In this document: positions 39,990 to 64,000 of the stretch, piece after piece
Position numbering within the stretch: the stretch's first letter is position 1
How the letters are laid out: each line of letters starts with the position of its first letter
Source: a virus
Reading direction: 5' to 3' (one strand)
IMG/VR virus record: IMGVR_UViG_3300050821_002957
Coordinates: 143,192 to 207,191 of that record
Length of the DNA: 64,000 nucleotides
The notes under the pieces: generated by a model
Database searches by the model: none
Told to the model about the DNA's origin: nothing
The model's input: the letters and a program-made list of their open reading frames with translations, nothing else
Made by a program: the position numbers and the translations under genes

Positions 39990-40018
39990 TTGACAGGATA
40001 CGGGTCTTGTGCTATAAA
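39990..40018 (+). promoter_or_regulatory. sigma70-type promoter TTGACA, 17 bp, TATAAA driving the tmRNA precursor
   Basis: Consensus -35, exact 17-bp spacer and near-consensus -10 lying 7 to 8 nt before the acceptor piece. Confidence 0.6.
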
Positions 40019-40025
40019 TAGAGTC

Positions 40026-40325
40026 GTAGCAGATAGTCGAAGTGAACGAAGAACGCTTCTTGGACATGGGTTCAATTCCCATCGGCTCCACCAAAATTCT
40101 GATTTTAGGCATCAGAGAACTTATGGGGCCGCCCCGGTTTCGACAGGATGAGATGTTGCGTAAGCAGGGCTACCGTGGTCCTTGTCCACGTTATCCAGAA
40201 GGAATCATAAACGCTAATGCACCTGCATTTGCTTTCGCTGCCGCTGCCTAAACAGCGCTCGAACGAAGTCGGAGAACTTTGTTAAAGAACTCCCAACAGA
40301 AGGCCGGGGCAACTCGGCCTTTTGC
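40026..40325 (+). ncRNA. ssrA: circularly permuted (two-piece) tmRNA: acceptor piece ends in CCA at 40093, coding piece starts GGGGCCG at 40125, tag frame 40213..40251, terminator 40301..40325
   Basis: T-arm GGGTTCAATTCCC. 3' acceptor strand CGGCUCC-A-CCA pairs with downstream 5' GGGGCCG, giving G3-U70 and discriminator A (alanine identity). Tag ORF ANAPAFAFAAAA + TAA. GC hairpin followed by a T-run. Confidence 0.75.
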
Positions 40326-40490
40326 TTTTTGAAAGGTTGTGTTTATGAGACGACATTTGAAAATGGTCCATCACCACGGCAAACGAGCACTAAAGTCTAA
40401 GTACGGACAGGTGTTCATCATCCTGTGGTTCGTGCCGGAAGCCATTGCACTTTTTGGTTTGATATGGGCTGCATGGCGACACCTTGTAAA

Positions 40491-40932: not shown

Positions 40933-41008
40933 GCCGAATTAGCTCAGTTAGCAGAGCGCCGCCCTCGTAATGCGGAGGTCATGAGTGCAACTCTCATATT
41001 CGGCTCCA
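40933..41008 (+). tRNA. tRNA-like gene, anticodon CGT (Thr), with noncanonical T-loop (TGCAACT) and 31-39 mismatch; CCA encoded
   Basis: Cloverleaf by hand: acceptor GCCGAAT/ATTCGGC, D GCTC/GAGC, anticodon loop CTCGTAA, T-stem ATGAG/CTCAT. Confidence 0.45.
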
Positions 41009-41011
41009 AAT

Positions 41012-41085
41012 GCCGCCTTATTTCAATGGTAGACTCTATCTCTGGTACAGATAGGATTTGGGTTCGATTCCCAAAGGCGGCTCCA
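41012..41085 (+). tRNA. tRNA, anticodon GGT (Thr) in the best parse (alternative parse CTG/Gln); weak D-stem; CCA encoded
   Basis: Acceptor GCCGCCT/AGGCGGC, anticodon stem TATCT/AGATA with loop CTGGTAC, T-arm TTGGG-TTCGATT-CCCAA. Confidence 0.55.
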
Positions 41086-41139
41086 CATAGTTTCGGAAAA
41101 TCGATGTGTCTAAATATCCAATAAGAGGATATTCCGAAC

Positions 41140-41766
41140 ATGACACGCAGCGAAGCCGGAAGGTTAGGTGGACAAATTATAGGGCAAAGAAATCGTGATG
41201 AGTCGTTTGCTCGATATTATGCAAACCCAAAATATTGTTTCCAGTGCGGATCGATCATTAAAATTCCACTGGGTAAGAGATACCAGTCCATTGCAAACAA
41301 GAAATTTTGTACGTCAAGTTGTTCGGCAACGTTTAACAATGCACAACGAGGACGGAAGGAACGGCTATGCAAGCGATGTAGCGCTGTCATCTCAAATTCC
41401 AACAAAGAATTTTGCAGCCATGTTTGTAGCAATCAATTTCGATACGAAAGATTCATTAAAGAGTGGCGAGCCGGGGACACATCAAAGGCTTCAACTTGCG
41501 ACGGACTATCCATCAGCAACCATATCCGTCGCTATCTGTTCGATAAGTATGAATCGAAGTGCTGTAAGTGTGGCTGGAACCGAGTCAATTCGGTAACTGG
41601 AAGAATTCCTCTAGTCGTCAATCACATCGATGGGCACTCGGAGAATAATTTAGAAAGCAACCTGGAGCTTATCTGCCCATCTTGCGATAGCCTAACGCCG
41701 ACCTACATGGCTCTGAACATTGGTCACGGTAGGAAGGCTCGTTACCGGGCAAAGGGTCCAAAATAA
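41140..41766 (+). CDS. HNH homing endonuclease
   Basis: CCKCGWN...PLVVNHIDGHSENNLESNLELICPSCDS (HNH motif); located immediately after the tRNA pair. Confidence 0.7.
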   Translation: MTRSEAGRLGGQIIGQRNRDESFARYYANPKYCFQCGSIIKIPLGKRYQSIANKKFCTSSCSATFNNAQRGRKERLCKRCSAVISNSNKEFCSHVCSNQFRYERFIKEWRAGDTSKASTCDGLSISNHIRRYLFDKYESKCCKCGWNRVNSVTGRIPLVVNHIDGHSENNLESNLELICPSCDSLTPTYMALNIGHGRKARYRAKGPK

Positions 41767-41833
41767 TTTTATAGCTTCGCTTGACAGGTTCTTTTCCTTA
41801 GTGTATTCTTAGTTCAGGCTTAGGGAAAATTTA

Positions 41834-43051
41834 GTGCAACAAACTAGAACATCGACGACTTTTCGTGTTAAACATACTCCGTGGAATAAAGGTAAGAAGA
41901 CCGGAGTTGGTGGACCTAAAGGGAGAAAATGGACAACAGAAGAGCGTCAACGAAGTTCTGAGGTACGGAAAGGACAAACCCCTTGGAATAAAGGGAAGAC
42001 GGGAATTGGTGTGTGGTCCTCACAGCGCCGCAAACAACATACCGAAAAGATGAAAAAACGGTGGGCTGTTTCCCTGCAAACACGAGATGAAAAATTATCG
42101 GTTTCTATGAAGAAAGTTCTATCAACAGTGGATTACACTTTCATTAGTCACTATAGAGGAATGACCGGAAAGTGGCCGCTCGTCCGAATCATCTACAAGT
42201 GTACAAAAGGACACAAAATTGATGCTTCATGGCCTGCTGTTAAACGAGCCATAGAAATTCGTGGATCAAATTGTCGCTTGTGTTCAATTCAGGTAAAACG
42301 AGAACATCCTTTTCCTGGTAGAATACACATAAAACCGTTTTCTACATATGCCTTACTATTCAAAGAAGCAGGAGCAACTCTTCTTTCAATTGAATACAAT
42401 CCTAAAAAGGAATTTCATTATGTGTGTCGGTGTGGTAAACGTTGTAAAACGACTCACTACCAACGTTACCAGTGTCGAGAGTGTGGAAACAAAGCCGGGG
42501 CACAAAAAAATCGAGAATTTATTAGACCTATAGGATTAGCCGCTCCTGGTCATCTTGGACAAAAGCGTGCTTCTAGACTCGAACAACTTCAAGCAGAATT
42601 TTTAGCAGCCGGATGTAAGATAACAAAATATGTAAATTGCAAGCGAATGTACTACATTTGTTCATGTGGAGGGTTTGGTGTTTCCACTTTGTGGAATTGG
42701 CGTCGGGGCGCACGATGTTCAAAATGTTCGTCTAGACGACAAGGCAAACAGAAGTCGTTTAAAGAAATTCTAGCCACATTCTTGAAGGCTGGATGTGTCC
42801 CTTTGTTCGATCAATATCTGAATGCTCATGATCCTTTACGATTTCGTTGTCGATGTGGTCGCATTGCCCAGAAAGGCTTCCAAATGTTCGAGCATCATCC
42901 GCACTGCATTCATTGTGGGCGAGAAATCCAAGCCCAACAGGGACAGCGTATCACTAAAATTAGAAAATTCTATCAAGAGGCAATTACTAAAATCAATGTT
43001 TCCCGAGAATTGAAACGTGTCCTGAAAGGGGTCAAGAAGATGGGACCATGA
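41834..43051 (+). CDS. Cys-rich protein with PWNKGK repeats and four tandem zinc-ribbon-like repeats (homing-endonuclease-type DNA-binding modules?)
   Basis: HTPWNKGKK / QTPWNKGKT repeats; repeated (Y/F)xCxCG...CxxC units. Confidence 0.45.
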   Translation: MQQTRTSTTFRVKHTPWNKGKKTGVGGPKGRKWTTEERQRSSEVRKGQTPWNKGKTGIGVWSSQRRKQHTEKMKKRWAVSLQTRDEKLSVSMKKVLSTVDYTFISHYRGMTGKWPLVRIIYKCTKGHKIDASWPAVKRAIEIRGSNCRLCSIQVKREHPFPGRIHIKPFSTYALLFKEAGATLLSIEYNPKKEFHYVCRCGKRCKTTHYQRYQCRECGNKAGAQKNREFIRPIGLAAPGHLGQKRASRLEQLQAEFLAAGCKITKYVNCKRMYYICSCGGFGVSTLWNWRRGARCSKCSSRRQGKQKSFKEILATFLKAGCVPLFDQYLNAHDPLRFRCRCGRIAQKGFQMFEHHPHCIHCGREIQAQQGQRITKIRKFYQEAITKINVSRELKRVLKGVKKMGP

Positions 43052-57683: not shown

Positions 57684-58466
57684 TTATGTTAGTCCACCAC
57701 TTGTGCCCGGACCATTATTGCTGCCGGGACCATTGACGGTCTGTGTAAACGGAACGTTCGTACCTGTGGCAGAACGTATCGCTGTTGTCTGACCACCATT
57801 GTTAGAGCCACCATTGATGTAAGTCCAAGCACTCGCATATTTGTACGTAAAGGTCACTTGGATGGTCTGGAACGTATTGTTGTTTGCGTAAGCTAAAGGT
57901 TGTTGAGCAATGGCAATAGGATACGCATCGATCAAGATAGTATAATAATTTGGGCTTACTTGAGCACCGCCGACCGACCCAGACCCAGAGTTTGCAAAAT
58001 CTGGATATTGAACAATGGCAATGTCGGTGCAATATTCACTGATGTAGTTGAAATTGTTGGTGTTGAAATCCATCACCATGTACATCCAAGCCTCAAAAAA
58101 CCAACGCTCATTCATTTGGTTACCGCACATGAACGTCATAGTTGTGTCTTGATATTCCGGGCGATGAGGAATCTTGTACGATGGACCATAGGAACGATTG
58201 GTCTCCATTTGAAACTGATAGCTAGGAAGCTCAGACTGTTGACAATAAGCCTGTAATTCAATAGCCATCGTGGACGTGTCACCACTAAAATAGTCAGCCA
58301 TCCAATCTACAGCATCGTCGCTAAACTGGAGAATAGCGGATTGTGCATTGTAGATTGCGGTAGATCGCTGCGCCAGAGCTTGAGTAGGAATGGTAATGTC
58401 ATAACAATTTTGAACAGCCCAACCTGTGCTATTCAATTGTGATCGGAATGCGTCGATGTTTAACAT
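57684..58466 (-). CDS. tail tube-family protein (T4 gp19/gp48/gp54-like fold) - tentative
   Basis: N-terminus FRSQLNSTGWAVQNCYDITIP resembles gp19 AFESGDFARPNLFQVEIS; C-terminus NNTFQTIQVTFTYKYA resembles gp19 NNEIQTFEVTLALDYWE. N/T/S/G-rich. Confidence 0.4.
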   Translation of the reverse strand: MLNIDAFRSQLNSTGWAVQNCYDITIPTQALAQRSTAIYNAQSAILQFSDDAVDWMADYFSGDTSTMAIELQAYCQQSELPSYQFQMETNRSYGPSYKIPHRPEYQDTTMTFMCGNQMNERWFFEAWMYMVMDFNTNNFNYISEYCTDIAIVQYPDFANSGSGSVGGAQVSPNYYTILIDAYPIAIAQQPLAYANNNTFQTIQVTFTYKYASAWTYINGGSNNGGQTTAIRSATGTNVPFTQTVNGPGSNNGPGTSGGLT

Positions 58467-59653
58467 TATCGTCTCCTTTTTAACTTTTGAATCATTCGTT
58501 TGCTGTCACTCCAGACTCGTTCTTTCTTTTCTTTCTGGAATTGCTCGACCGGCAAGAACACTGCAATCTCCCAATCAACCGGCTCCACGTTGAGTAGTTC
58601 ACTCTTTACCTGTGATGCCAAGTAACGTTTGATCGTCGGTTTAACTTCAGGAAACTGTGCCACGTTCTTGATCAAACCATATGACATTTGCAATTTTGTA
58701 ATCTTATCTAATGATTTATCGTTCGCAAAGGAAAGTAGTTTGTCGAAGAGCTTTGCACGAAGTAACAATGGAAGATAATGAAGATTGAGACCCAGCCATC
58801 CGTCATCGTACAGTTCGACGACGAAGATCAAAGGAAACTTATCCCAATATGGAAGATCGTCTTTGGTCTTTGCATCATAAAAATACATGAACATCTTTCC
58901 GACCAATGCTTCGGCGGCTGTCTGCCCTTGTGAAATTAATCTGGTACGGTTCGGTGACTTTTTTGTCTTGTTAACATTGTCGGTCAGCCAGTTGCGTGCG
59001 CCTTTGGTTAATGACTTGATGCCATAACGACGAAGTTTGAGACGTATCTTTTCAAAGAACGTTGGATTCCTTGGATCTTTCGGGGGAATCCAATCGCCTT
59101 GTTTGATGTCTGGCTTCTGCGCTGGGGGAGGAGCACTTGGTTGACCACCACGACTGACTTGTGTCGGTTGGGGACCTTCCGGCGCAGTTATTTCAGGCGC
59201 ATATTGTTTTGCAACGTCTCTAATATCCTCTGGTGGCTTACTAGGATCGTAATAGCTCTTTACTGCATCTCGAATCGATTGAATAGAAGAGTTATGTGGG
59301 TCGAGTTTGTTCTGTTTGATGATCTGAATAATCTCGCTTTCAGAAGCCTTCTTGCCAATAGCCTTGATGTTTCGCCCGACCAAGTGTTTCAAGTCCTGCA
59401 TTGCGCTATGAGCAACAACCTTCTTCGCAGCTTCCTGGATCACTTTGTCATTTACGAGCGAGGATTTTGAGAGATGAGTTACAACGCTGGCAATGTCTTC
59501 GTTCGCAACGGGGCGATTCGGTACGAGTTTATGAAAGGCGTCAGATATCAAACTCTTGATATTTGGAACTTTGTTGGGATCGAAAGAGACACTACGGACA
59601 TACTTCGTCGCAATCTTTCGGATCTCTGCTTCACTAATAATTTGTTTTGGCAT
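58466..59653 (-). CDS. hypothetical virion-module protein
   Basis: 395-aa ORF with an ATGA-type junction to its neighbours. Confidence 0.55.
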   Translation of the reverse strand: MPKQIISEAEIRKIATKYVRSVSFDPNKVPNIKSLISDAFHKLVPNRPVANEDIASVVTHLSKSSLVNDKVIQEAAKKVVAHSAMQDLKHLVGRNIKAIGKKASESEIIQIIKQNKLDPHNSSIQSIRDAVKSYYDPSKPPEDIRDVAKQYAPEITAPEGPQPTQVSRGGQPSAPPPAQKPDIKQGDWIPPKDPRNPTFFEKIRLKLRRYGIKSLTKGARNWLTDNVNKTKKSPNRTRLISQGQTAAEALVGKMFMYFYDAKTKDDLPYWDKFPLIFVVELYDDGWLGLNLHYLPLLLRAKLFDKLLSFANDKSLDKITKLQMSYGLIKNVAQFPEVKPTIKRYLASQVKSELLNVEPVDWEIAVFLPVEQFQKEKKERVWSDSKRMIQKLKRRR

Positions 59654-60177
59654 TAAAAACCACTCAGGTGCTTTTCAGTCAAGATCATCCATTCCCATCC
59701 ATGCTGGTCGCAGAATTTTTTGGCTTCGGTCCACTTCGCTTGATTGATGATCCAATTTTTCTGTTCGGCGAAGTAACGACGTGTTTTTCGTTTTGGTTCT
59801 TTTGGGGGAACAGTCGCCGTACTCCATTTACATTCGACCAATCGAGTAGTGATCTTCCCATCCCGATTTTTGGTGATAACTTTGAAGTCTACGAAGTAAC
59901 GATGCATCTTTTTGTCGAGGGGTGAATAATATGGGATCACAGTCTCTTCGGAAGACCATCTCAGGACAGAAGGTTGGTCGTCAAGATACTTCATCATTCG
60001 CAATTCCATCTTGGACCGATAAGTGATCGTATTGATATCACCATCGTATTTTTCTGGGTGAAGTGGTGTAAAGAAGCCTCTACGTGTTCCGTGGGTCTTT
60101 CTGCGTTTGTTCAGTTTTGACGGAGCAATTTCTTTAGCTCTCGGTTCCGGTTTGGGTGTTGGTTGCTGTTGATCCAC
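59653..60177 (-). CDS. small PD-(D/E)XK-like protein, possibly a gp4-type head-completion nuclease
   Basis: IPYYSPLD...YFVDFKV...LVECK pattern (D...D-x-K ... E-x-K); position next to the structural genes. Confidence 0.35.
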   Translation of the reverse strand: MDQQQPTPKPEPRAKEIAPSKLNKRRKTHGTRRGFFTPLHPEKYDGDINTITYRSKMELRMMKYLDDQPSVLRWSSEETVIPYYSPLDKKMHRYFVDFKVITKNRDGKITTRLVECKWSTATVPPKEPKRKTRRYFAEQKNWIINQAKWTEAKKFCDQHGWEWMILTEKHLSGF

Positions 60178-60202
60178 ATACGTATTTAGCCCATATAAAT
60201 AA

Positions 60203-61264
60203 GTGCAAATGCCTGCTCAAACCAATTTCAATTCTTGGGTTCAAGCTCAACAGACGAACCAATCAAACGGTCAAGATGCCCCGCTTGCCGGAATCGACAC
60301 AAGTCAATATACGTATTCCAGCTTCATTTATCCGCTTGACCTGGGTGCTCCGGGCGCAGGCAAGGATCACTACATGGTGTTCCATATTAATGAAACTTCT
60401 ACGACACAATATCAGACCACAAATGTAAACGGGGCGGCTCCTACGGGTCAGCCCACAATTGTTGCTAACGCCCAACAGAGTCAAGCAAATGGAATGGGTT
60501 CGACAACAAATACTCCGTCGCAAAATGGAACCTCTACGTCGGGGCAGCAAGGCAATTCTGCATCAAATCCTTCATCAGTTGTGGCTTATCAACCGATCAA
60601 ACGAGTAGCAACCACAATCGTTTTGTACATCCCTCAACATCAAGTCAACTATCATGCTGAGTGGGAAGCAGAAAATCTTGGCGTGGCCGCAGACGTAATG
60701 GAAGCGATCAAAGGTTCAGAGAGTTTGAAAGATTTGTTTAAGTCGGCTGGTGCTTCTGGCCTGAAAAATGCCGGAACCATGTTGAACGAATTGACTGACT
60801 TGAATTTGTCTGCCGCAACATCCGCAGCAACTCGAATTGCAATCAACCCTCACATGGAAGTCATCTTCAATGGTATCGGATTTCGTCAATTCCAGTTCAG
60901 TTTTCGATTCACCGCTCAAAGTGAAGCCGAAGCGTTGAACATCGATAACATCATTCGAGCGTTCAAATTTTATGCAGCCCCGGAGATTTTAGCTGGAGCC
61001 GCAGGCCGATTCTGGATCTATCCGGCTGAGTTTGACATTCAGTTTTATTCCAATGGCACCGAGAATGATTTTTTAAACAAAATCAGTACATGTGCCTTGA
61101 CCGACATGCAAGTCAACTATACGTCGGCTGGTCAGTGGTCCGCACATCGCCCGTACAAATCGACACCAGGACTTGCAGGTTCACCTAGCGTCTGTACCGA
61201 CATTCAGCTTACATTCAAAGAACTCGAAATCATCACGAAGGAAAGAATTCTACAAGGATACTAA
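60203..61264 (+). CDS. hypothetical structural protein (Q/N/S/T-rich N-terminus; possibly tail tube/baseplate family)
   Basis: 353-aa ORF diverging from the minus-strand virion genes. Confidence 0.5.
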   Translation: MQMPAQTNFNSWVQAQQTNQSNGQDAPLAGIDTSQYTYSSFIYPLDLGAPGAGKDHYMVFHINETSTTQYQTTNVNGAAPTGQPTIVANAQQSQANGMGSTTNTPSQNGTSTSGQQGNSASNPSSVVAYQPIKRVATTIVLYIPQHQVNYHAEWEAENLGVAADVMEAIKGSESLKDLFKSAGASGLKNAGTMLNELTDLNLSAATSAATRIAINPHMEVIFNGIGFRQFQFSFRFTAQSEAEALNIDNIIRAFKFYAAPEILAGAAGRFWIYPAEFDIQFYSNGTENDFLNKISTCALTDMQVNYTSAGQWSAHRPYKSTPGLAGSPSVCTDIQLTFKELEIITKERILQGY

Positions 61265-61265
61265 A

Positions 61266-61481
61266 ATGGCTTACTCGCTTGGTGGAGATTTGTGGCCTTT
61301 GTGTACGTGTGGACATGGGTATTTGGCTCACGATGCACATAGTCTAAAGTGTCAAGATGACCCTTCCGATTGGGGATGTTGCTACTGCAAAAAGTGTGCT
61401 AAATGTCCTTGCGAGTACTTTACCGCAGACAAAGGATATTATGCCGCAGACAAAAGAACAACTCCATCAGATGTACGTTGA
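61266..61481 (+). CDS. small Cys-rich protein
   Basis: CTCGHGY...CCYCKKCAKCPCEY. Confidence 0.4.
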   Translation: MAYSLGGDLWPLCTCGHGYLAHDAHSLKCQDDPSDWGCCYCKKCAKCPCEYFTADKGYYAADKRTTPSDVR

Positions 61482-61744
61482 GTACATCGCTGAACTTCGA
61501 CGCCTCAAAAATGAGAAGTACGGCGAACAGTTGGAATTTCAATTTGAAGAGAAGGCATTGGACATACCAGCATGGCGCAAGAACAAGAACAAACAGAAAG
61601 AAGCAAAGTGATTGACATCGGCGAATGGAAGAAAGCACATGGACTTCCGTCGCCACCTTATCAACCGACAAATGAAACCACAACTGTCTTTGTGAACAAA
61701 TTTTCAAACCCGAGTTTTTGGACAGTTCCACCTAAACGACCATC

Positions 61745-62056
61745 TCAATAACAGATGATGACGAATGGGATGTCTTCAAGCTCACTCAGGCGCACATCTT
61801 GTTCTTCTCGACAGCAAATGTCATCGAAGAGTTTATCGTCTTTGATCTGGCCGCAGTCAAACGCTAGGAACGTTTCATCTTCGGTCTGGCCGGTCAAGCG
61901 TGTCCATTCACTCAGCGTGGCCTTGTAGACTGCCTCGTATGCATCCTTGCCTTCTCTAGTGCATCGGATGAATATGGCCTTGTCACACCCATGTGCCGTT
62001 ACCGGCTTCTTTCTTTTATTCTTTGTCTTCGTCGCACCACTCATCGATTTTCCCAT
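61745..62056 (-). CDS. hypothetical protein
   Basis: Start taken at MGKSMSG. Confidence 0.4.
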   Translation of the reverse strand: MGKSMSGATKTKNKRKKPVTAHGCDKAIFIRCTREGKDAYEAVYKATLSEWTRLTGQTEDETFLAFDCGQIKDDKLFDDICCREEQDVRLSELEDIPFVIICY

Positions 62057-62349
62057 TTTGTTGTGATGTCCTTGATTACTGTGTCTGGCTCCGTAGTATA
62101 AAGCCAAAAAAGTTGAACTGCGTTATTGCCCCGAACTTGCATTTTCAAACCACCGCTGACTGACGTGAACTTGATATGTGGTTGTGCTCCTGCTCGAACA
62201 GGAGTGATGATCCCCAGACCAATTTTTGTAACATGTGGTGATTCTTTTGCAGCAAGCACAACAGGGATAGCAGTAGGAATGACAGTCGAGTGGTTACCGG
62301 AAAACTTTGGTCCACGCAACAATCCTTTGAGTCCCTTATGACTGCCCAT
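62041..62349 (-). CDS. hypothetical protein
   Basis: 102-aa ORF whose 3' end overlaps the next gene. Confidence 0.4.
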   Translation of the reverse strand: MGSHKGLKGLLRGPKFSGNHSTVIPTAIPVVLAAKESPHVTKIGLGIITPVRAGAQPHIKFTSVSGGLKMQVRGNNAVQLFWLYTTEPDTVIKDITTKWENR

Positions 62350-62429
62350 GTGGATTATTTTGACACAGTACTAGGCCGCAGTGCAAGTGTATTCTTTCTG
62401 GAAGCACTCTTTGCGCTACATAACCTTAC

Positions 62430-62921
62430 ATGATCTGTAAGAAATGCCAAAATCGTATCCCTACTCGCATTGTAATCGAAGGCCGTCGCCGAAACCTTCA
62501 GCGCCGCAAGTATTGTTTAAAGTGCTCGCCATTCGGAGTCCACAACACTGGCGACCCACAAAAAATTTCTCTTCGAGGTACAGATCGAAAATGCGAAGGA
62601 TGTATCAACATGATAGAACGTCGAAGACGATATTGTTCATCATGCATAAGCCGGATGCGCCGTCACAAAAGAAAACAGGTTGGTGTAGATGTGTTGGGAG
62701 GAAAATGTATGGATTGCGGCTATAATCGATGTCTGGCTGCTCTCTCATTTCATCACCGTGATCCTTCAAAAAAGGAATTTACGATCAGTGAATTTTCGAG
62801 AACTACGATGTCTCGATTCATTGCCGAAGTAAAGAAGTGTGATTTGGTTTGTGCTACATGCCACATCGAGAGGCACTATTTGAAAGATGGAGCCGAGTGG
62901 GAGAATCGAACTCCCGAATGA
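62430..62921 (+). CDS. HNH homing endonuclease
   Basis: CGYNRCLAALSFHHRDPSKKEFTIS...CDLVCATCH. The 3' end overlaps the antisense tRNA by 34 nt. Confidence 0.7.
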   Translation: MICKKCQNRIPTRIVIEGRRRNLQRRKYCLKCSPFGVHNTGDPQKISLRGTDRKCEGCINMIERRRRYCSSCISRMRRHKRKQVGVDVLGGKCMDCGYNRCLAALSFHHRDPSKKEFTISEFSRTTMSRFIAEVKKCDLVCATCHIERHYLKDGAEWENRTPE

Positions 62922-62962
62922 TCGCTTTGCAGGCGAATACCTTACCACTTGGTTAACTCGGC
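62888..62962 (-). tRNA. tRNA-Cys (anticodon GCA), CCA encoded
   Basis: Cloverleaf GCCGAGT-TA-ACCA-AGTGGTA-AGGT-A-TTCGC-CTGCAAA-GCGAT-CATTC-GGGAG-TTCGATT-CTCCC-ACTCGGC-T-CCA. Confidence 0.7.
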
Positions 62963-62968
62963 GTAGAA

Positions 62969-63202
62969 CTATCGACGAGGAGAACGAAAGGCGTGTTCCC
63001 TAATAGCTTTAATCTCTGATCGCAAAGACTTGATTTCTGTTTGAAGAGGTTCGATCTGCTTATTGATGACATCAGTGATGAGATTTTTTAATTCTCCCAC
63101 AGCGTTATCGTCATCGGGAAGTTGTCCCTGGAAAACAGTATCTTCAGTTCTCTTCGAGAGAGCATAGAACAGATGAGCGAACAAATAATTTTGAGTGAAC
63201 AT
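62969..63202 (-). CDS. hypothetical small protein between the two tRNAs
   Basis: Coiled-coil-like C-terminus; start taken at MFTQNY to avoid the tRNA. Confidence 0.3.
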   Translation of the reverse strand: MFTQNYLFAHLFYALSKRTEDTVFQGQLPDDDNAVGELKNLITDVINKQIEPLQTEIKSLRSEIKAIREHAFRSPRR

Positions 63203-63219
63203 GGTAGTTATATAGAATT

Positions 63220-63296
63220 TGGAGCACCCGGTGAGAGTCGAACTCACTTTTCATCAGTTTTGCAGACTGTGCCCTCACCACTTTGGGTTCAGGTGC
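63220..63296 (-). tRNA. second tRNA with anticodon GCA (Cys), CCA encoded
   Basis: GCACCTG-AA-CCCA-AAGTGGTG-AGGG-C-ACAGT-CTGCAAA-ACTGA-TGAAAA-GTGAG-TTCGACT-CTCAC-CGGGTGC-T-CCA; U6-G wobble in the acceptor, 27-43 mismatch. Confidence 0.55.
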
Positions 63297-63442
63297 ATGA
63301 AAGAGATTGGTGTGCTTTTAACAGAAGTGATGAAGAACGACGGTCGTAACAATCGCAACGACGTAGGCTGCGAGAATTGACTTGATGATGTAACGTCCGT
63401 ATTCCATGTCAGTATCTATCTTCCCACAAATTTTGAATTCTG

Positions 63443-63721
63443 TCAATAGAGGTCTTCACTAAAAAGAATCGTGCCGACGTATTGTCCATCTTTTCCATAA
63501 CACGATGGCCTGCCGGAAGCCTTCTGAATCTGCATGGCTTCCTCTCGACCAACGAACCTACCCGTCGATGTCACAAACCCTTGTTCAGCCTTGAGAATGT
63601 CCAGCCGATTAACATCAGGCATGACACGCACTACGTCAAGACAATGATTGTGCCGGTGACCGTAGTACACTTCTCCATTCGGCATCCTGATCGCAGAGCA
63701 AATACAAAATTCAGATTCCAT
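63443..63721 (-). CDS. hypothetical protein
   Basis: 92-aa ORF. Confidence 0.4.
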   Translation of the reverse strand: MESEFCICSAIRMPNGEVYYGHRHNHCLDVVRVMPDVNRLDILKAEQGFVTSTGRFVGREEAMQIQKASGRPSCYGKDGQYVGTILFSEDLY

Positions 63722-63950
63722 TCTCCGATTCTAACATAGTCCGAACGTGATCAAGTTGAGCTTTGGCAAAATCCAATTCAAGTTGTGCCTTGGCTAATTT
63801 TTTGTAGAGGTTTTCCAAGATTCGCTCTCGGTTCCGGCGCAGTCTTACAGCTACCTGCTGCGGTGTCGGTTGGAAACAGCGTCGGGACAAACGTCGAATC
63901 AACCACCACAAAGCTCTCAGTCTCATAATGCTCTCCGCTTGCGATCCCAA
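63711..63950 (-). CDS. hypothetical protein
   Basis: 79-aa ORF with a coiled-coil-like C-terminus. Confidence 0.3.
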   Translation of the reverse strand: MGSQAESIMRLRALWWLIRRLSRRCFQPTPQQVAVRLRRNRERILENLYKKLAKAQLELDFAKAQLDHVRTMLESENGI

Positions 63951-64000
63951 GGCTTTCGTTCCGGCTTGCGCTTCTTGGTCTTGAACATCTCAGGCGCAAT

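What the first reader, a model, noticed from the sequence alone, without database searches (positions are those of the whole stretch)
62430..63296. Two distinct tRNAs that both read GCA (Cys) on the minus strand, with an HNH endonuclease ORF overlapping one of them antisense
The tRNAs at 62888..62962 and 63220..63296 have different sequences, but both anticodon loops are CUGCAAA (anticodon GCA), both encode CCA, and both have a 27-43 mismatch. Duplicate isoacceptors are odd for a phage. One may be a recent HNH-mediated acquisition, or a tRNA whose identity (for example acceptor and discriminator determinants) differs from its anticodon.

The last 34 nt of the HNH ORF (62430..62921, plus strand) overlap the 3' half of the first tRNA on the opposite strand. 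This arrangement is typical of homing-endonuclease insertions at tRNA genes.
Basis: seen in the sequence. Interest (0 to 1): 0.5.

Follow-up and report, generated by a model that had tools for sequence, protein, structure and literature searches.

The report
Phage tRNA-Cys pair beside HNH endonuclease
A large T4-like soil phage carries two different cysteine tRNA genes next to a selfish HNH nuclease gene of a family that habitually sits among phage tRNA genes; this is a real but largely ordinary arrangement.

Summary
Both minus-strand tRNAs pass the Rfam tRNA model: 62888..62962 scores 62.4 bits and 63220..63296 scores 40.8 bits (threshold 29). ARAGORN and Rfam's default filters miss the second one. 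Both have the loop CUGCAAA, U73, an encoded CCA and a 27:43 mismatch. The 163-aa ORF at 62430..62921 is an HNH endonuclease (phrog_2255, E=1e-35; Pfam finds nothing), and it overlaps tRNA 1 antisense by 34 nt.

In all nine contexts I examined, homologues of this HNH lie inside phage tRNA arrays, and they often run into the neighbouring tRNA. The overlapping C-terminal tail is not conserved.

The acquisition is not recent. Three sister lineages (baseplate protein gp48 53-59% identical, or HNH 67% identical) share the same module: one promoter, a non-canonical tRNA-Cys, sometimes a canonical tRNA-Cys, and a convergent HNH. Two of those lineages have an unrelated HNH family in that slot.

The two tRNAs are 68% identical, and each has a closer match in another phage. 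This suggests separate acquisition rather than tandem duplication. Nothing suggests a non-Cys identity. Why the phage keeps two is unresolved.

This is a new member of a known kind, of modest interest.

The parts
63413..63446 (-). Sigma-70-type promoter of the tRNA-Cys module: TTGACA, then N13-GTG-N5, then ATAGATA. This reads as a -35 box plus an extended -10 box.
   Evidence: This is the only copy in the 64-kb window (0.03 expected by chance). It is conserved in register upstream of the non-canonical tRNA-Cys in L002, L005 and L102. Among the 138 loci held at that point it occurred only in module-bearing ones. The same string is a common strong promoter form in other phages.
63318..63407 (-). 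Small, nearly leaderless ORF of 29 codons: MEYGRYIIKSILAAYVVAIVTTVVLHHFC. Its last sense codon is Cys, and its stop codon lies 21 nt before tRNA 2.
   Evidence: Read from the sequence. An ATG or GTG lies 5 nt after ATAGATA, and the M-E-Y start is shared with L102 and L005. A gene was called here on the ENA contig. Whether it is translated is not shown.
63220..63296 (-). tRNA 2: a non-canonical tRNA-Cys(GCA) of 77 nt. It has A8 in place of the near-universal U8, an A13.A22 mismatch, an A27.A43 mismatch, a 6-nt variable loop, U73 and an encoded CCA.
   Evidence: Rfam tRNA 40.8 bits against a threshold of 29. ARAGORN misses it. Its minimum-free-energy fold is a cloverleaf, but no more stable than shuffled sequence (z=-0.85). 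It is the positional equivalent of the long-D-loop tRNA-Cys in L002, L005 and L102. Across a 7-sequence alignment, 14 of 20 pairs show compensatory changes.
62969..63202 (-). ORFan of 77 aa that exactly fills the spacer between the two tRNAs.
   Evidence: ORF list. A gene was called here on the ENA contig. It has no PHROG family and no homologue other than itself among 5.8 billion proteins.
62888..62962 (-). tRNA 1: a canonical tRNA-Cys(GCA) of 75 nt. Its D-arm is ACCA-AGUGGUA-AGGU with an A13.A22 mismatch. It also has a U27.U43 mismatch, U73 and an encoded CCA.
   Evidence: ARAGORN and Rfam 62.4 bits. Its closest matches are tRNA-Cys genes of other soil phages: 80% to L094 (global alignment) and about 80% over 63 nt to Tunturiibacter phage Tunturi_5 (BLAST).
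62430..62921 (+). Free-standing HNH endonuclease gene (163 aa), convergent with the tRNAs.
   Evidence: phrog_2255, E=1.2e-35. 97 homologues. Conserved zinc-binding and catalytic motif. AlphaFold model with pLDDT 88, whose best PDB matches are mostly HNH nucleases. Pfam finds nothing.
62888..62921 (.). The 34-nt convergent overlap. The last 11 codons of the HNH ORF, including the stop (…GAEWENRTPE*), are read from the antisense of tRNA 1: its CCA, 3' acceptor strand, T-arm and variable loop.
   Evidence: Coordinates. In the family alignment the tails after the last catalytic His are not conserved in length or sequence. The model confidence drops to about 65 over the last residues. L002's unrelated HNH also ends 34 nt into its tRNA, in the same frame.
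62041..62349 (-). DUF2103-like gene (102 aa), the syntenic neighbour that bounds the module on the HNH side.
   Evidence: PF09876 scores 21.2 bits, just below the 22.4 cutoff. It is 60-65% identical to the neighbours of the HNH in L002 and L005. 137 relatives were found in metagenome contigs. None of the 80 fetched had a tRNA-Cys nearby.
40933..43051 (+). Context: the window's second tRNA locus shows the same association. It holds tRNA-Thr(CGU) at 40933..41008, tRNA-Thr(GGU) at 41012..41085, then HNH genes at 41140..41766 and 41834..43051.
   Evidence: ARAGORN and Rfam. phrog_1271 at E=4e-17 and phrog_559 at E=2.5e-12. The 41140 HNH is 36% identical (E=9e-37) to the HNH that sits beside tRNA-Cys in L002.

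Best explanation
This locus is a small tRNA-Cys expression module of a large T4-like soil phage. A free-standing HNH homing-endonuclease gene has lodged against it.

On the minus strand, a sigma-70-type promoter (63446..63413) precedes four elements in order:
- a short, nearly leaderless ORF;
- a non-canonical tRNA-Cys(GCA), tRNA 2;
- a 77-aa ORFan;
- a canonical tRNA-Cys(GCA), tRNA 1.

Both tRNAs carry the main cysteine identity marks (U73 and the GCA anticodon) and an encoded CCA. Both would most likely be charged by the host CysRS, and both would read UGU and UGC (inferred, not shown).

The plus-strand HNH gene belongs to a family that lives in phage tRNA arrays. By analogy with T4 SegB, it probably cuts relatives that lack it and is copied in together with the flanking tRNA genes (inferred). 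That would explain three features:
- two unrelated HNH families occupy the same slot in sister lineages;
- the tRNA next to the HNH comes and goes between lineages;
- the two tRNA-Cys genes look separately acquired rather than tandem duplicates.

The 34-nt overlap is incidental. The ORF has no stop codon of its own before the tRNA, so it reads a non-conserved tail through the antisense tRNA.

Keeping two tRNAs with the same anticodon adds no decoding range. The likeliest benefit is a robust supply of Cys-tRNA from two structurally different molecules, for example across hosts or against tRNA-directed host nucleases. That last step is speculative.
For: tRNAs:
- Both exceed the Rfam tRNA gathering score with GCA, U73 and CCA.
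- The cloverleaf of the non-canonical type is kept by compensatory changes in 14 of 20 pairs across 7 sequences.

Conservation of the module:
- The promoter string occurs once in the window. It lies in register upstream of the equivalent tRNA in L002, L005 and L102.
- The order tRNA, convergent HNH, DUF2103-like gene is shared with L002/L003, L005 and L102-L104.

HNH gene:
- phrog_2255 at E=1e-35.
- Invariant residues: two CxxC pairs, HH, and H145.
- HNH-like predicted fold.
- Homologues sit in tRNA arrays in every context examined.
- The window's tRNA-Thr pair is followed by two more HNH genes.

Turnover at the slot:
- The L002/L005 HNH is not similar to the window's 62430 HNH (best E=0.001, misaligned).
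- It is 36% identical (E=9e-37) to the window's 41140 HNH.
- The canonical tRNA-Cys is present in the window and L002/L003, and absent in L005 and L102.

Separate origin of the two tRNAs:
- tRNA 1 and tRNA 2 are 68% identical.
- tRNA 1 is 80% identical to an L094 tRNA. tRNA 2 is 72% identical to an L099 tRNA, a small margin.

Tail:
- It is not conserved and has low model confidence.

Codon supply:
- Cys makes up about 1.8% of a rough gene set, with TGC 154 and TGT 195. A single GCA anticodon reads both codons.

Precedent:
- SegB sits in the T4 tRNA cluster (PMC2330249).
- SegB-driven amplification of tRNA-Tyr lets phage escape a host defence (PMC13096335).
- HNH genes in tRNA clusters are implicated in tRNA repertoire diversity (PMC6409571).
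Against: - I found no relative without an HNH at this site, so homing is inferred from patchiness only. No cleavage site is known.
- The window's HNH has Thr where most homologues have the Asn of CxNCH. Activity is therefore unproven.
- tRNA 2 departs from the universal tRNA core: A8 instead of U8, G at position 21, and a probable A15/A48 pair. It scores 15-20 bits below its relatives, and its fold is no more stable than shuffled sequence (z=-0.85). It could be poorly functional.
- Expression and aminoacylation of either tRNA are untested.
- The host is unknown. Nothing can be said about how host tRNA-Cys differs, or whether a nuclease that cuts tRNA-Cys exists there.
- Only four related lineages were found, most on short contigs.
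Confidence: 0.65

Rival explanations
1. The second tRNA-Cys is a counter-defence isodecoder. The host, or a competing element, cuts or depletes tRNA-Cys. The phage supplies a structurally different tRNA-Cys, expressed early from a host-type promoter, that escapes the nuclease while still being charged.
For: - Phage tRNAs that escape tRNA-directed defences are documented (PMC10264068, PMC11555353, PMC11464382, PMC13096335).
- An M. tuberculosis VapC toxin that cuts tRNA is cited there (Cruz 2015 and Barth 2021, cited in PMC10264068). That its in vivo target is tRNA-Cys is from my own recall.
- The non-canonical copy is the constant member of the module and has its own sigma-70-type promoter.
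- In 6 of 8 phage lineages that carry a canonical 'GCCAAGUGGUAAGGU'-type tRNA-Cys, a second, structurally different tRNA-Cys is also present.
Against: - The two anticodon loops are identical (CUGCAAA). Documented escape changes are mostly in the anticodon loop.
- The host and its tRNA-Cys are unknown, and no nuclease has been identified.
- The 6-of-8 count is biased because the search pattern was chosen from a canonical copy, and the fetched loci are partial.
- In 12 other phage loci with a long-D-loop tRNA-Cys, it is the only Cys tRNA.
Confidence: 0.2
2. tRNA 2 is a decaying, non-functional copy. tRNA 1 is the working gene, brought in with the HNH cassette as its replacement.
For: - tRNA 2 has the lowest score of all the Cys tRNAs seen (40.8 bits) and is missed by ARAGORN.
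- It has A8, G21, an A27.A43 mismatch and an odd 6-nt variable loop.
- Its fold is no more stable than shuffled sequence.
- The -10 box of its promoter is weaker in the window (GAAGAT) than in its sisters (TAGTAT).
Against: - All four stems, U33, A37, G18G19, the T-loop UUCGA, G53:C61, U73 and CCA are intact.
- A similar A8-type tRNA-Cys exists in an unrelated contig, L099.
- The sequence is identical in two independent assemblies.
- The promoter and the position are conserved across lineages.
Confidence: 0.12
3. tRNA 2 is charged with an amino acid other than Cys, so its identity differs from its anticodon and it recodes Cys codons.
For: - Its core is non-canonical.
- Related oddities exist in other phages: the A8-type tRNA(GCA) in L099 has G3:U70, and L129, L130 and L112 carry tRNA(GCA) genes with a long variable arm.
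Against: - tRNA 2 has U73 and GCA, the main CysRS determinants (PMC5389517).
- It has A3:U70, not G3:U70.
- It has no long variable arm.
- It has a normal 7/5 acceptor and T-stem arrangement.
Confidence: 0.03

Closest known systems
T4 SegB, a free-standing homing endonuclease in the T4 tRNA gene cluster (PMC2330249, PMC13096335)
   Same: It is a free-standing endonuclease gene lodged between phage tRNA genes in a T4-like myovirus. Its distribution among relatives is patchy. It is expected to spread together with the flanking tRNA genes. SegB homologues are statistically enriched next to tRNAs.
   Different: SegB is a GIY-YIG enzyme, whereas this is an HNH. SegB's cleavage, preferential inheritance and tRNA amplification have been shown by experiment; nothing has been tested here. 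Here the gene is convergent with the tRNA and overlaps it.
HNH endonucleases annotated inside the tRNA clusters of FelixO1, Bastille and fHe-Yen9-04 (phrog_2255 relatives)
   Same: They belong to the same protein family (36-47% identity). They sit between tRNA genes. Their 3' ends run into the next tRNA by 7 nt in FelixO1 and 24 nt in fHe-Yen9-04. In Bastille the HNH is flanked by two divergent tRNA-Asn genes.
   Different: Those genes are on the same strand as the tRNAs and sit in large arrays. Here the HNH is antisense to a two-gene tRNA-Cys module. As far as I found, none of those enzymes has been characterised.
Phage tRNAs that counter tRNA-directed defences, such as T5 tRNA-Tyr against retron and Septu, tRNA-Lys against PARIS, and anticodon-loop variants (PMC10264068, PMC11555353, PMC11464382)
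   Same: A phage-encoded tRNA duplicates a function the host already provides. It is expressed from a host-type promoter and differs structurally from the canonical form.
   Different: No defence that targets tRNA-Cys has been identified for this phage. The two anticodon loops are identical. The resemblance is a lead, not a result.
selC* tRNA-Cys and allo-tRNAs, the non-canonical Cys tRNAs of Mukai et al. (PMC5389517)
   Same: They are minor tRNA species with GCA and U73 and a non-standard body. They occur in bacteria, including Acidobacteria, and in phages.
   Different: Those tRNAs have 8/4 or 9/3 acceptor and T-stems and a long variable arm. tRNA 2 has a 7/5 arrangement and a 6-nt variable loop.

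Membership tests
tRNA (Rfam RF00005) | The cloverleaf covariance-model score reaches the gathering score of 29 bits. | tested here: met
   tRNA 1 scores 62.4 bits and tRNA 2 scores 40.8 bits. tRNA 2 is found only with relaxed filters and is not called by ARAGORN.
tRNA (Rfam RF00005) | Universal tertiary-core nucleotides are present: U8, A14, G18G19, A21, a purine-15:pyrimidine-48 pair, T54-Psi55-C56 and A58. | tested here: inconclusive
   tRNA 1 has all of them. tRNA 2 has A8, G21 and probably A15/A48, but keeps A14, G18G19, UUCGA and G53:C61 (read). A similar A8 tRNA-Cys occurs in L099.
tRNA-Cys (cysteine isoacceptor) | GCA anticodon in a 7-nt loop with U33 and A37. | tested here: met
   The loop is CUGCAAA in both tRNAs.
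tRNA-Cys (cysteine isoacceptor) | U73 discriminator, the major CysRS determinant (PMC5389517). | tested here: met
   Both tRNAs end ...GGCU-CCA or ...GUGCU-CCA.
tRNA-Cys (cysteine isoacceptor) | Best score with an isotype-specific model (tRNAscan-SE), and charging by CysRS. | not testable with these tools
   No isotype models or enzymology were available. As a crude proxy, the nearest neighbours of both tRNAs among about 200 phage tRNAs of all isotypes are Cys tRNAs.
selC* tRNA-Cys / allo-tRNA | An 8/4 or 9/3 acceptor and T-stem arrangement, plus a long variable arm. | tested here: not met
   The acceptor stem has 7 bp and the T-stem 5 bp. The variable loop has 5 or 6 nt.
HNH (beta-beta-alpha-metal) endonuclease | Significant match to an HNH sequence profile. 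| tested here: met
   phrog_2255 at E=1.2e-35, with four further HNH PHROGs. Pfam PF01844 is not matched by the window protein, and only weakly by 3 of 16 homologues. The family profile matches the HNH motif of the PDB protein McrA at E=0.04.
HNH (beta-beta-alpha-metal) endonuclease | Catalytic His, Asn and His residues with zinc-binding CxxC pairs. | tested here: inconclusive
   C93/C96, H108/H109, C141/C144, H145, E147 and H149 are present. The Asn of CxNCH is Thr in the window protein, in P0001 and in P0009.
HNH (beta-beta-alpha-metal) endonuclease | A beta-beta-alpha fold. | tested here: inconclusive
   The AlphaFold model has pLDDT 88.3. Most of the best PDB matches are HNH nucleases (Cap5, T4 endonuclease VII, Gme HNH, Cas9 HNH domains), with probabilities up to 0.9. 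Their E-values are only 0.17 to about 1, and TM-scores are about 0.28.
Free-standing homing endonuclease (SegB-like behaviour) | An intergenic gene with patchy presence at an otherwise conserved site in related genomes. | tested here: inconclusive
   Two unrelated HNH families fill the same slot, and the flanking tRNA varies between lineages. No relative with an empty site was found.
Free-standing homing endonuclease (SegB-like behaviour) | Cuts the allele that lacks it, near the insertion point, and is then copied in together with flanking markers. | not testable with these tools
   This needs a cleavage assay and mixed infections.

The most novel reading that the evidence does not exclude
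The module could be a regulated counter-measure to loss of Cys-tRNA. It would work as follows:
- It is driven by a host-type promoter.
- A nearly leaderless mini-ORF rich in Cys codons lies immediately upstream of the tRNA-Cys. The mini-ORF is MEYCCSNT in L102 and MEYCCSKV in L005. In the window it is a 29-codon ORF ending in Cys.
- That mini-ORF would act as a leader peptide sensing the availability of charged tRNA-Cys.
- The structurally unusual tRNA-Cys would escape a host nuclease.

A leader-peptide attenuator controlling a tRNA gene would be a new arrangement.
Probability: 0.07. Interest if true: 0.7.

Novelty: new member of a known kind. Interest (0 to 1): 0.3.

Why it matters
- It adds a well-documented case, from an uncultured soil T4-like phage, to the known association between free-standing homing endonucleases and phage tRNA genes.
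- It shows that one HNH family (phrog_2255, which Pfam does not detect) lay in or beside tRNA genes in every context examined.
- It shows that two unrelated HNH families can replace each other at the same tRNA-Cys junction.
- It is a practical warning: a real phage tRNA was missed by ARAGORN and by Rfam's default filters.
- The recurrence of a canonical plus a non-canonical tRNA-Cys in several soil phages is a lead for work on tRNA-directed defence. It is not yet a result.

Tried and rejected
- Nucleotide search of window 60000..64000 and of tRNA 2 against cultured phages gave no match.
- Searching IMG/VR with the HNH protein gave no confirmed relative.
- Using the DUF2103-like neighbour as an anchor gave only the same three IMG/VR contigs. 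It also gave 80 metagenome loci, none with a tRNA-Cys nearby. That gene is therefore not linked to the tRNAs.
- An exact 21-mer from tRNA 2 gave no match in IMG/VR.
- One IMG/VR scan was wasted on a D-loop pattern that was one base too long. The corrected pattern found 12 new loci, each with a single Cys tRNA.
- A long-D-loop tRNA-Cys pattern in 185,579 species genomes gave only 10 hits, mostly Anaerolineales with a shorter D-loop. No host was identified.
- Codon supply is rejected as the reason for two copies. Both tRNAs have the same anticodon, and Cys is about 1.8% of residues.
- The conserved 'ATAGATA' promoter string looked specific to the module. The IMG/VR scan showed it is a common strong promoter form in other phages.
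- The 77-aa ORF between the tRNAs has no homologues and no family.
- Looking up the full-length source contigs for wider context did not return more DNA.
- The matching 34-nt overlap in the window and L002 is explained by the same reading frame through similar tRNA sequences, not by anything special.
Full report
**What the window is**

The flanking genes are T4-type structural genes:
- a baseplate tail-tube cap (gp48-like, 60203..61264; phrog_230, E=6e-57);
- a head-closure protein (59653..60177; phrog_218).

The best cultured relative of gp48 is Pelagibacter phage HTVC008M, at only 31% identity. The window's last 6 kb (58041..64000), which contains the locus, is 100% identical to part of a 178.9-kb Logan contig, and 62363..63417 to a 1-kb ENA contig. 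The ORFan in the locus is also recorded on a 405.6-kb JGI contig. The closest cultured-phage match to tRNA 1 is a tRNA-Cys of Tunturiibacter phage Tunturi_5, a jumbo phage of a tundra-soil acidobacterium. The DUF2103-like neighbour has many relatives in metagenome contigs whose names suggest soil or peat samples. I therefore treat this as a large, uncultured T4-like soil phage. The host is unknown.

**Checking the observation**

ARAGORN finds four tRNA-type genes in the window: a tmRNA, two tRNA-Thr genes, and tRNA-Cys(GCA) at 62888..62962 on the minus strand. It does not call anything at 63220..63296. Rfam with default filters also misses that site. With relaxed filters the site scores 40.8 bits on the tRNA model, against a gathering score of 29 (E=9e-7 locally; E=3.5e-5 for the whole window). 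tRNA 1 scores 62.4 bits.

In both alignments the loop is CUGCAAA, position 73 is U, CCA is encoded, and the 27:43 pair is flagged non-canonical (U.U and A.A). The two genes are 68% identical.

The plus-strand ORF 62430..62921 is as described and overlaps tRNA 1 by 34 nt. Pfam gives it no family. The other evidence supports an HNH endonuclease:
- PHROGs phrog_2255 'HNH endonuclease' matches at E=1.2e-35 over residues 2-160.
- 97 homologues share N-terminal CxxC...RKYCLxCSPF and C-terminal GGKCxxCGY...FHHxDP...KCxLLCxNCHxExH motifs.
- An AlphaFold model (pLDDT 88) has HNH nucleases as most of its best PDB matches, though at weak E-values.

One caveat: the Asn of CxNCH is Thr in this copy.

**Anatomy of tRNA 2**

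tRNA 2 has these canonical features:
- a 7-bp acceptor stem, including one G.U pair;
- a 3-bp D-stem plus an A13.A22 mismatch;
- a 4-bp anticodon stem plus an A27.A43 mismatch;
- a perfect 5-bp T-stem with the loop UUCGACU;
- G18G19, U33, and A37-A38.

It departs from the canonical core in having A8 and A9 (U8 is almost universal), G at position 21, and a 6-nt variable loop. Its minimum-free-energy fold is a cloverleaf, but no more stable than shuffled sequence (z=-0.85). A similar A8-type tRNA-Cys exists in the unrelated contig L099 and is 72% identical.

**Relatives show a conserved module, not a recent insertion**

Searching IMG/VR with gp48 found contigs whose gp48 is 51-59% identical.

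| Lineage | Non-canonical tRNA-Cys | Canonical tRNA-Cys | HNH at the junction |
|---|---|---|---|
| Window | tRNA 2, 77 nt | tRNA 1, 75 nt | phrog_2255 family, overlaps tRNA 1 by 34 nt |
| L002/L003 | 82 nt, long D-loop | 75 nt, 9 nt downstream | unrelated family, overlaps the canonical tRNA by 34 nt |
| L005 | 80 nt, long D-loop | absent | same family as L002, runs 59 nt into the long tRNA |
| L102-L104 | 79 nt, long D-loop, followed by a 65-aa ORF | absent | 67% identical to the window's HNH |

Sources. In the window, L002, L005 and L103/L104 a DUF2103-like gene follows the HNH divergently.

All four lineages share, in register, the string TTGAC(A/G)-N13-GTG-N5-ATAGATA upstream of the non-canonical tRNA. 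It occurs once in the window, at 63413..63446 on the minus strand. Among the 138 loci held at that point it occurred only in module-bearing ones. It reads as a sigma-70 -35 box plus an extended -10 box, so host RNA polymerase probably transcribes the module. A wider scan showed that the same string is a common strong promoter form in other phages.

So the constant members are the promoter, the non-canonical tRNA-Cys and a convergent HNH. The canonical tRNA-Cys next to the HNH is variable. The cloverleaf of the non-canonical type is kept by compensatory changes in 14 of 20 pairs across seven sequences.

**The HNH family lives among tRNA genes**

Every context I examined for homologues of the window HNH is a tRNA array or adjoins a tRNA:
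- L105/L106: tRNA-Glu, HNH, tRNA-Met, with a 39-nt overlap.
- L107: tRNA-Trp, HNH, tRNA-Lys.
- L108-L111: two tRNA-Ile, HNH, tRNA-Thr.
- Bacillus phage Bastille: tRNA-Asn, HNH, tRNA-Asn.
- Yersinia phage fHe-Yen9-04: the HNH overlaps tRNA-Ser.
- FelixO1: tRNA-Lys, HNH, tRNA-Ile.
- Vibrio phage VCPH: a tRNA-Tyr lies under the match.

Inside this window, the tRNA-Thr pair is followed directly by two more HNH genes (phrog_1271 and phrog_559).

The HNH beside tRNA-Cys in L002 and L005 is not similar to the window's 62430 HNH. It is 36% identical (E=9e-37) to the window's 41140 HNH, the one beside tRNA-Thr. Two unrelated, tRNA-associated HNH families therefore occupy the same junction in sister lineages. 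That is the pattern expected of mobile endonuclease genes.

The association is already described:
- T4 SegB sits in the tRNA cluster and drives its preferential inheritance (PMC2330249).
- SegB homologues are enriched next to tRNAs and can amplify tRNA-Tyr to escape a defence (PMC13096335).
- HNH genes in mycobacteriophage tRNA clusters have been linked to tRNA repertoire diversity (PMC6409571).

**The overlap**

In the family alignment, everything after the last catalytic His differs in length and sequence. Model confidence falls to about 65 there. The window's tail, GAEWENRTPE, is simply the antisense of the tRNA 1 acceptor strand, T-arm and variable loop.

The tails of two homologues (…GLEPV…, …RRDSNPRP…) also look to me like read-through of a tRNA T-arm; I judged this by eye. 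L002's unrelated HNH enters its tRNA in the same frame and also stops after 34 nt. This follows from the similar tRNA sequences.

I read the overlap as incidental. The ORF has no stop codon of its own before the tRNA boundary. Possible side effects, such as antisense pairing between the tRNA and the HNH mRNA 3' end, or the tRNA acting as a two-way terminator, are speculation.

**Why two tRNA-Cys genes?**

- Decoding range does not explain it. Both anticodons are GCA, and Cys is about 1.8% of a rough gene set, with TGC 154 and TGT 195.
- A tandem duplication is unlikely. The two are 68% identical. tRNA 1 is 80% identical to a tRNA in L094, and tRNA 2 is 72% identical to one in L099, a small margin.
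- Divergent same-anticodon pairs beside these HNH genes recur. Bastille's Asn pair and L108's Ile pair are each 55% identical.
- Multiple distinct tRNA-Cys genes also recur. Of five other contigs found with a canonical D-arm pattern, four have two to four Cys tRNAs.
- Counting the window and L002, six of eight lineages with the canonical type also carry a different type.
- This count is biased by how the contigs were found. In 12 loci found with a long-D-loop pattern, the Cys tRNA is single.

I conclude that the second copy was most likely gained by recombination at the endonuclease junction and then retained. The benefit, a robust Cys-tRNA supply across hosts or against tRNA nucleases, is inferred only.

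The counter-defence idea has good precedents for other tRNAs (PMC10264068, PMC11555353, PMC11464382). For Cys it rests on an M. tuberculosis VapC4 toxin cited in PMC10264068; that its target is tRNA-Cys is from my own recall. Here the two anticodon loops are identical and the host is unknown.

**Identity switch**

I found no support for it. Both tRNAs have U73 and GCA, which PMC5389517 names as the most important CysRS determinants. tRNA 2 has A3:U70 rather than G3:U70, no long variable arm, and a normal 7/5 acceptor and T-stem arrangement. It is therefore not a selC* or allo-tRNA.

**A lead seen in passing**

Five nucleotides after the ATAGATA string, three lineages have a start codon followed by Glu-Tyr:
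- L102 encodes MEYCCSNT followed by a stop.
- L005 encodes (GTG)MEYCCSKV followed by a stop.

Between those two there is a synonymous TAC/TAT change and a different stop codon at the same position. A conserved hairpin follows, and then the tRNA-Cys.

The window instead has a 29-codon hydrophobic ORF (63407..63318). Its last codon is Cys, and its stop lies 21 nt before tRNA 2. L002 has no such ORF.

A Cys-codon leader peptide in front of a tRNA-Cys gene would be new. It rests on two sequences, and I give it a low probability.

**Verdict**

The features are real. The homing-endonuclease reading is right in kind, but the event is old and the slot has turned over. The tRNAs are best read as two cysteine tRNAs of separate origin. 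This is a new member of a known kind, and interest is modest.

Noticed in passing
window 40001..40342 (ARAGORN); 40032..40251 (Rfam): The phage encodes a permuted (two-piece type) tmRNA. It scores 93.5 bits on RF04321 and also matches the betaproteobacterial tmRNA model below threshold. The predicted tag peptide is ANAPAFAFAAAA. It lies just upstream of the tRNA-Thr pair.
   Followed up: no
window 40933..43051: tRNA-Thr(CGU) and tRNA-Thr(GGU) are followed directly by two HNH endonuclease genes (41140..41766, phrog_1271; 41834..43051, phrog_559). The first is the homologue of the HNH that sits beside tRNA-Cys in L002 and L005.
   Followed up: partly
L102 1081..1107 (-); L005 10277..10303 (-); window 63318..63407 (-): Nearly leaderless mini-ORFs lie between the promoter and the tRNA-Cys. 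They are MEYCCSNT* in L102 and (GTG)MEYCCSKV* in L005, each with tandem Cys codons and followed by a conserved hairpin. The window has a 29-codon ORF ending in Cys. This could be a Cys-sensing leader peptide, but it rests on only two sequences.
   Followed up: partly
window 63220..63296: A methodological point: a tRNA scoring 40.8 bits is missed by ARAGORN and by cmscan with default filters. It is recovered only with relaxed filters.
   Followed up: yes
L099 1521..1598 (-): An A8-type tRNA(GCA) similar to tRNA 2 carries a G3:U70 pair in its acceptor stem. From my own knowledge, G3:U70 is the classical alanine identity element. This tRNA could be charged with Ala at Cys codons.
   Followed up: no
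L129 3797..3886; L130 3862..3951; L112 2153.. (91 nt): Two phage contigs and a contig from a genome assembly titled 'uncultured bacterium isolate RUG334' carry 90-91-nt tRNA(GCA) genes. They have U73, a normal 7-bp acceptor stem and a long variable arm, which makes them class-II-like 'Cys' tRNAs.
   Followed up: no
L096 10616..11946: One phage contig has four distinct tRNA-Cys(GCA) genes plus a CUA-anticodon (amber-reading) tRNA. CUA tRNAs also occur in L108-L111, L135 and L136.
   Followed up: no
window 62041..62349 (-); L013-L092: The DUF2103-like 102-aa protein has no Cys residues and scores just below the Pfam cutoff. It is highly conserved (63-81% identity in the 80 best loci). 137 relatives were found in metagenome contigs, some 200-530 kb long. 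Its function is unknown.
   Followed up: partly
L002 7057..7716; L005 7176..8378: In the sister lineages the gene right after gp48 looks like a GIY-YIG homing endonuclease. I judged this by eye from the motif only (YKITNTVNGKSYIGYTG). It is absent from that position in the window.
   Followed up: no
L159 5821..; L161 12212..; L180 11339..: In another phage group the same strong promoter form (TTGACA-N17-TGnTACAAT-AGATACT) sits 8 nt upstream of a tRNA-Cys(GCA) that is followed by other tRNA genes in the locus.
   Followed up: no
window 62969..63202 (-): A 77-aa ORFan fits exactly between the two tRNAs. L102 has an unrelated 65-aa ORF in the equivalent position.
   Followed up: partly
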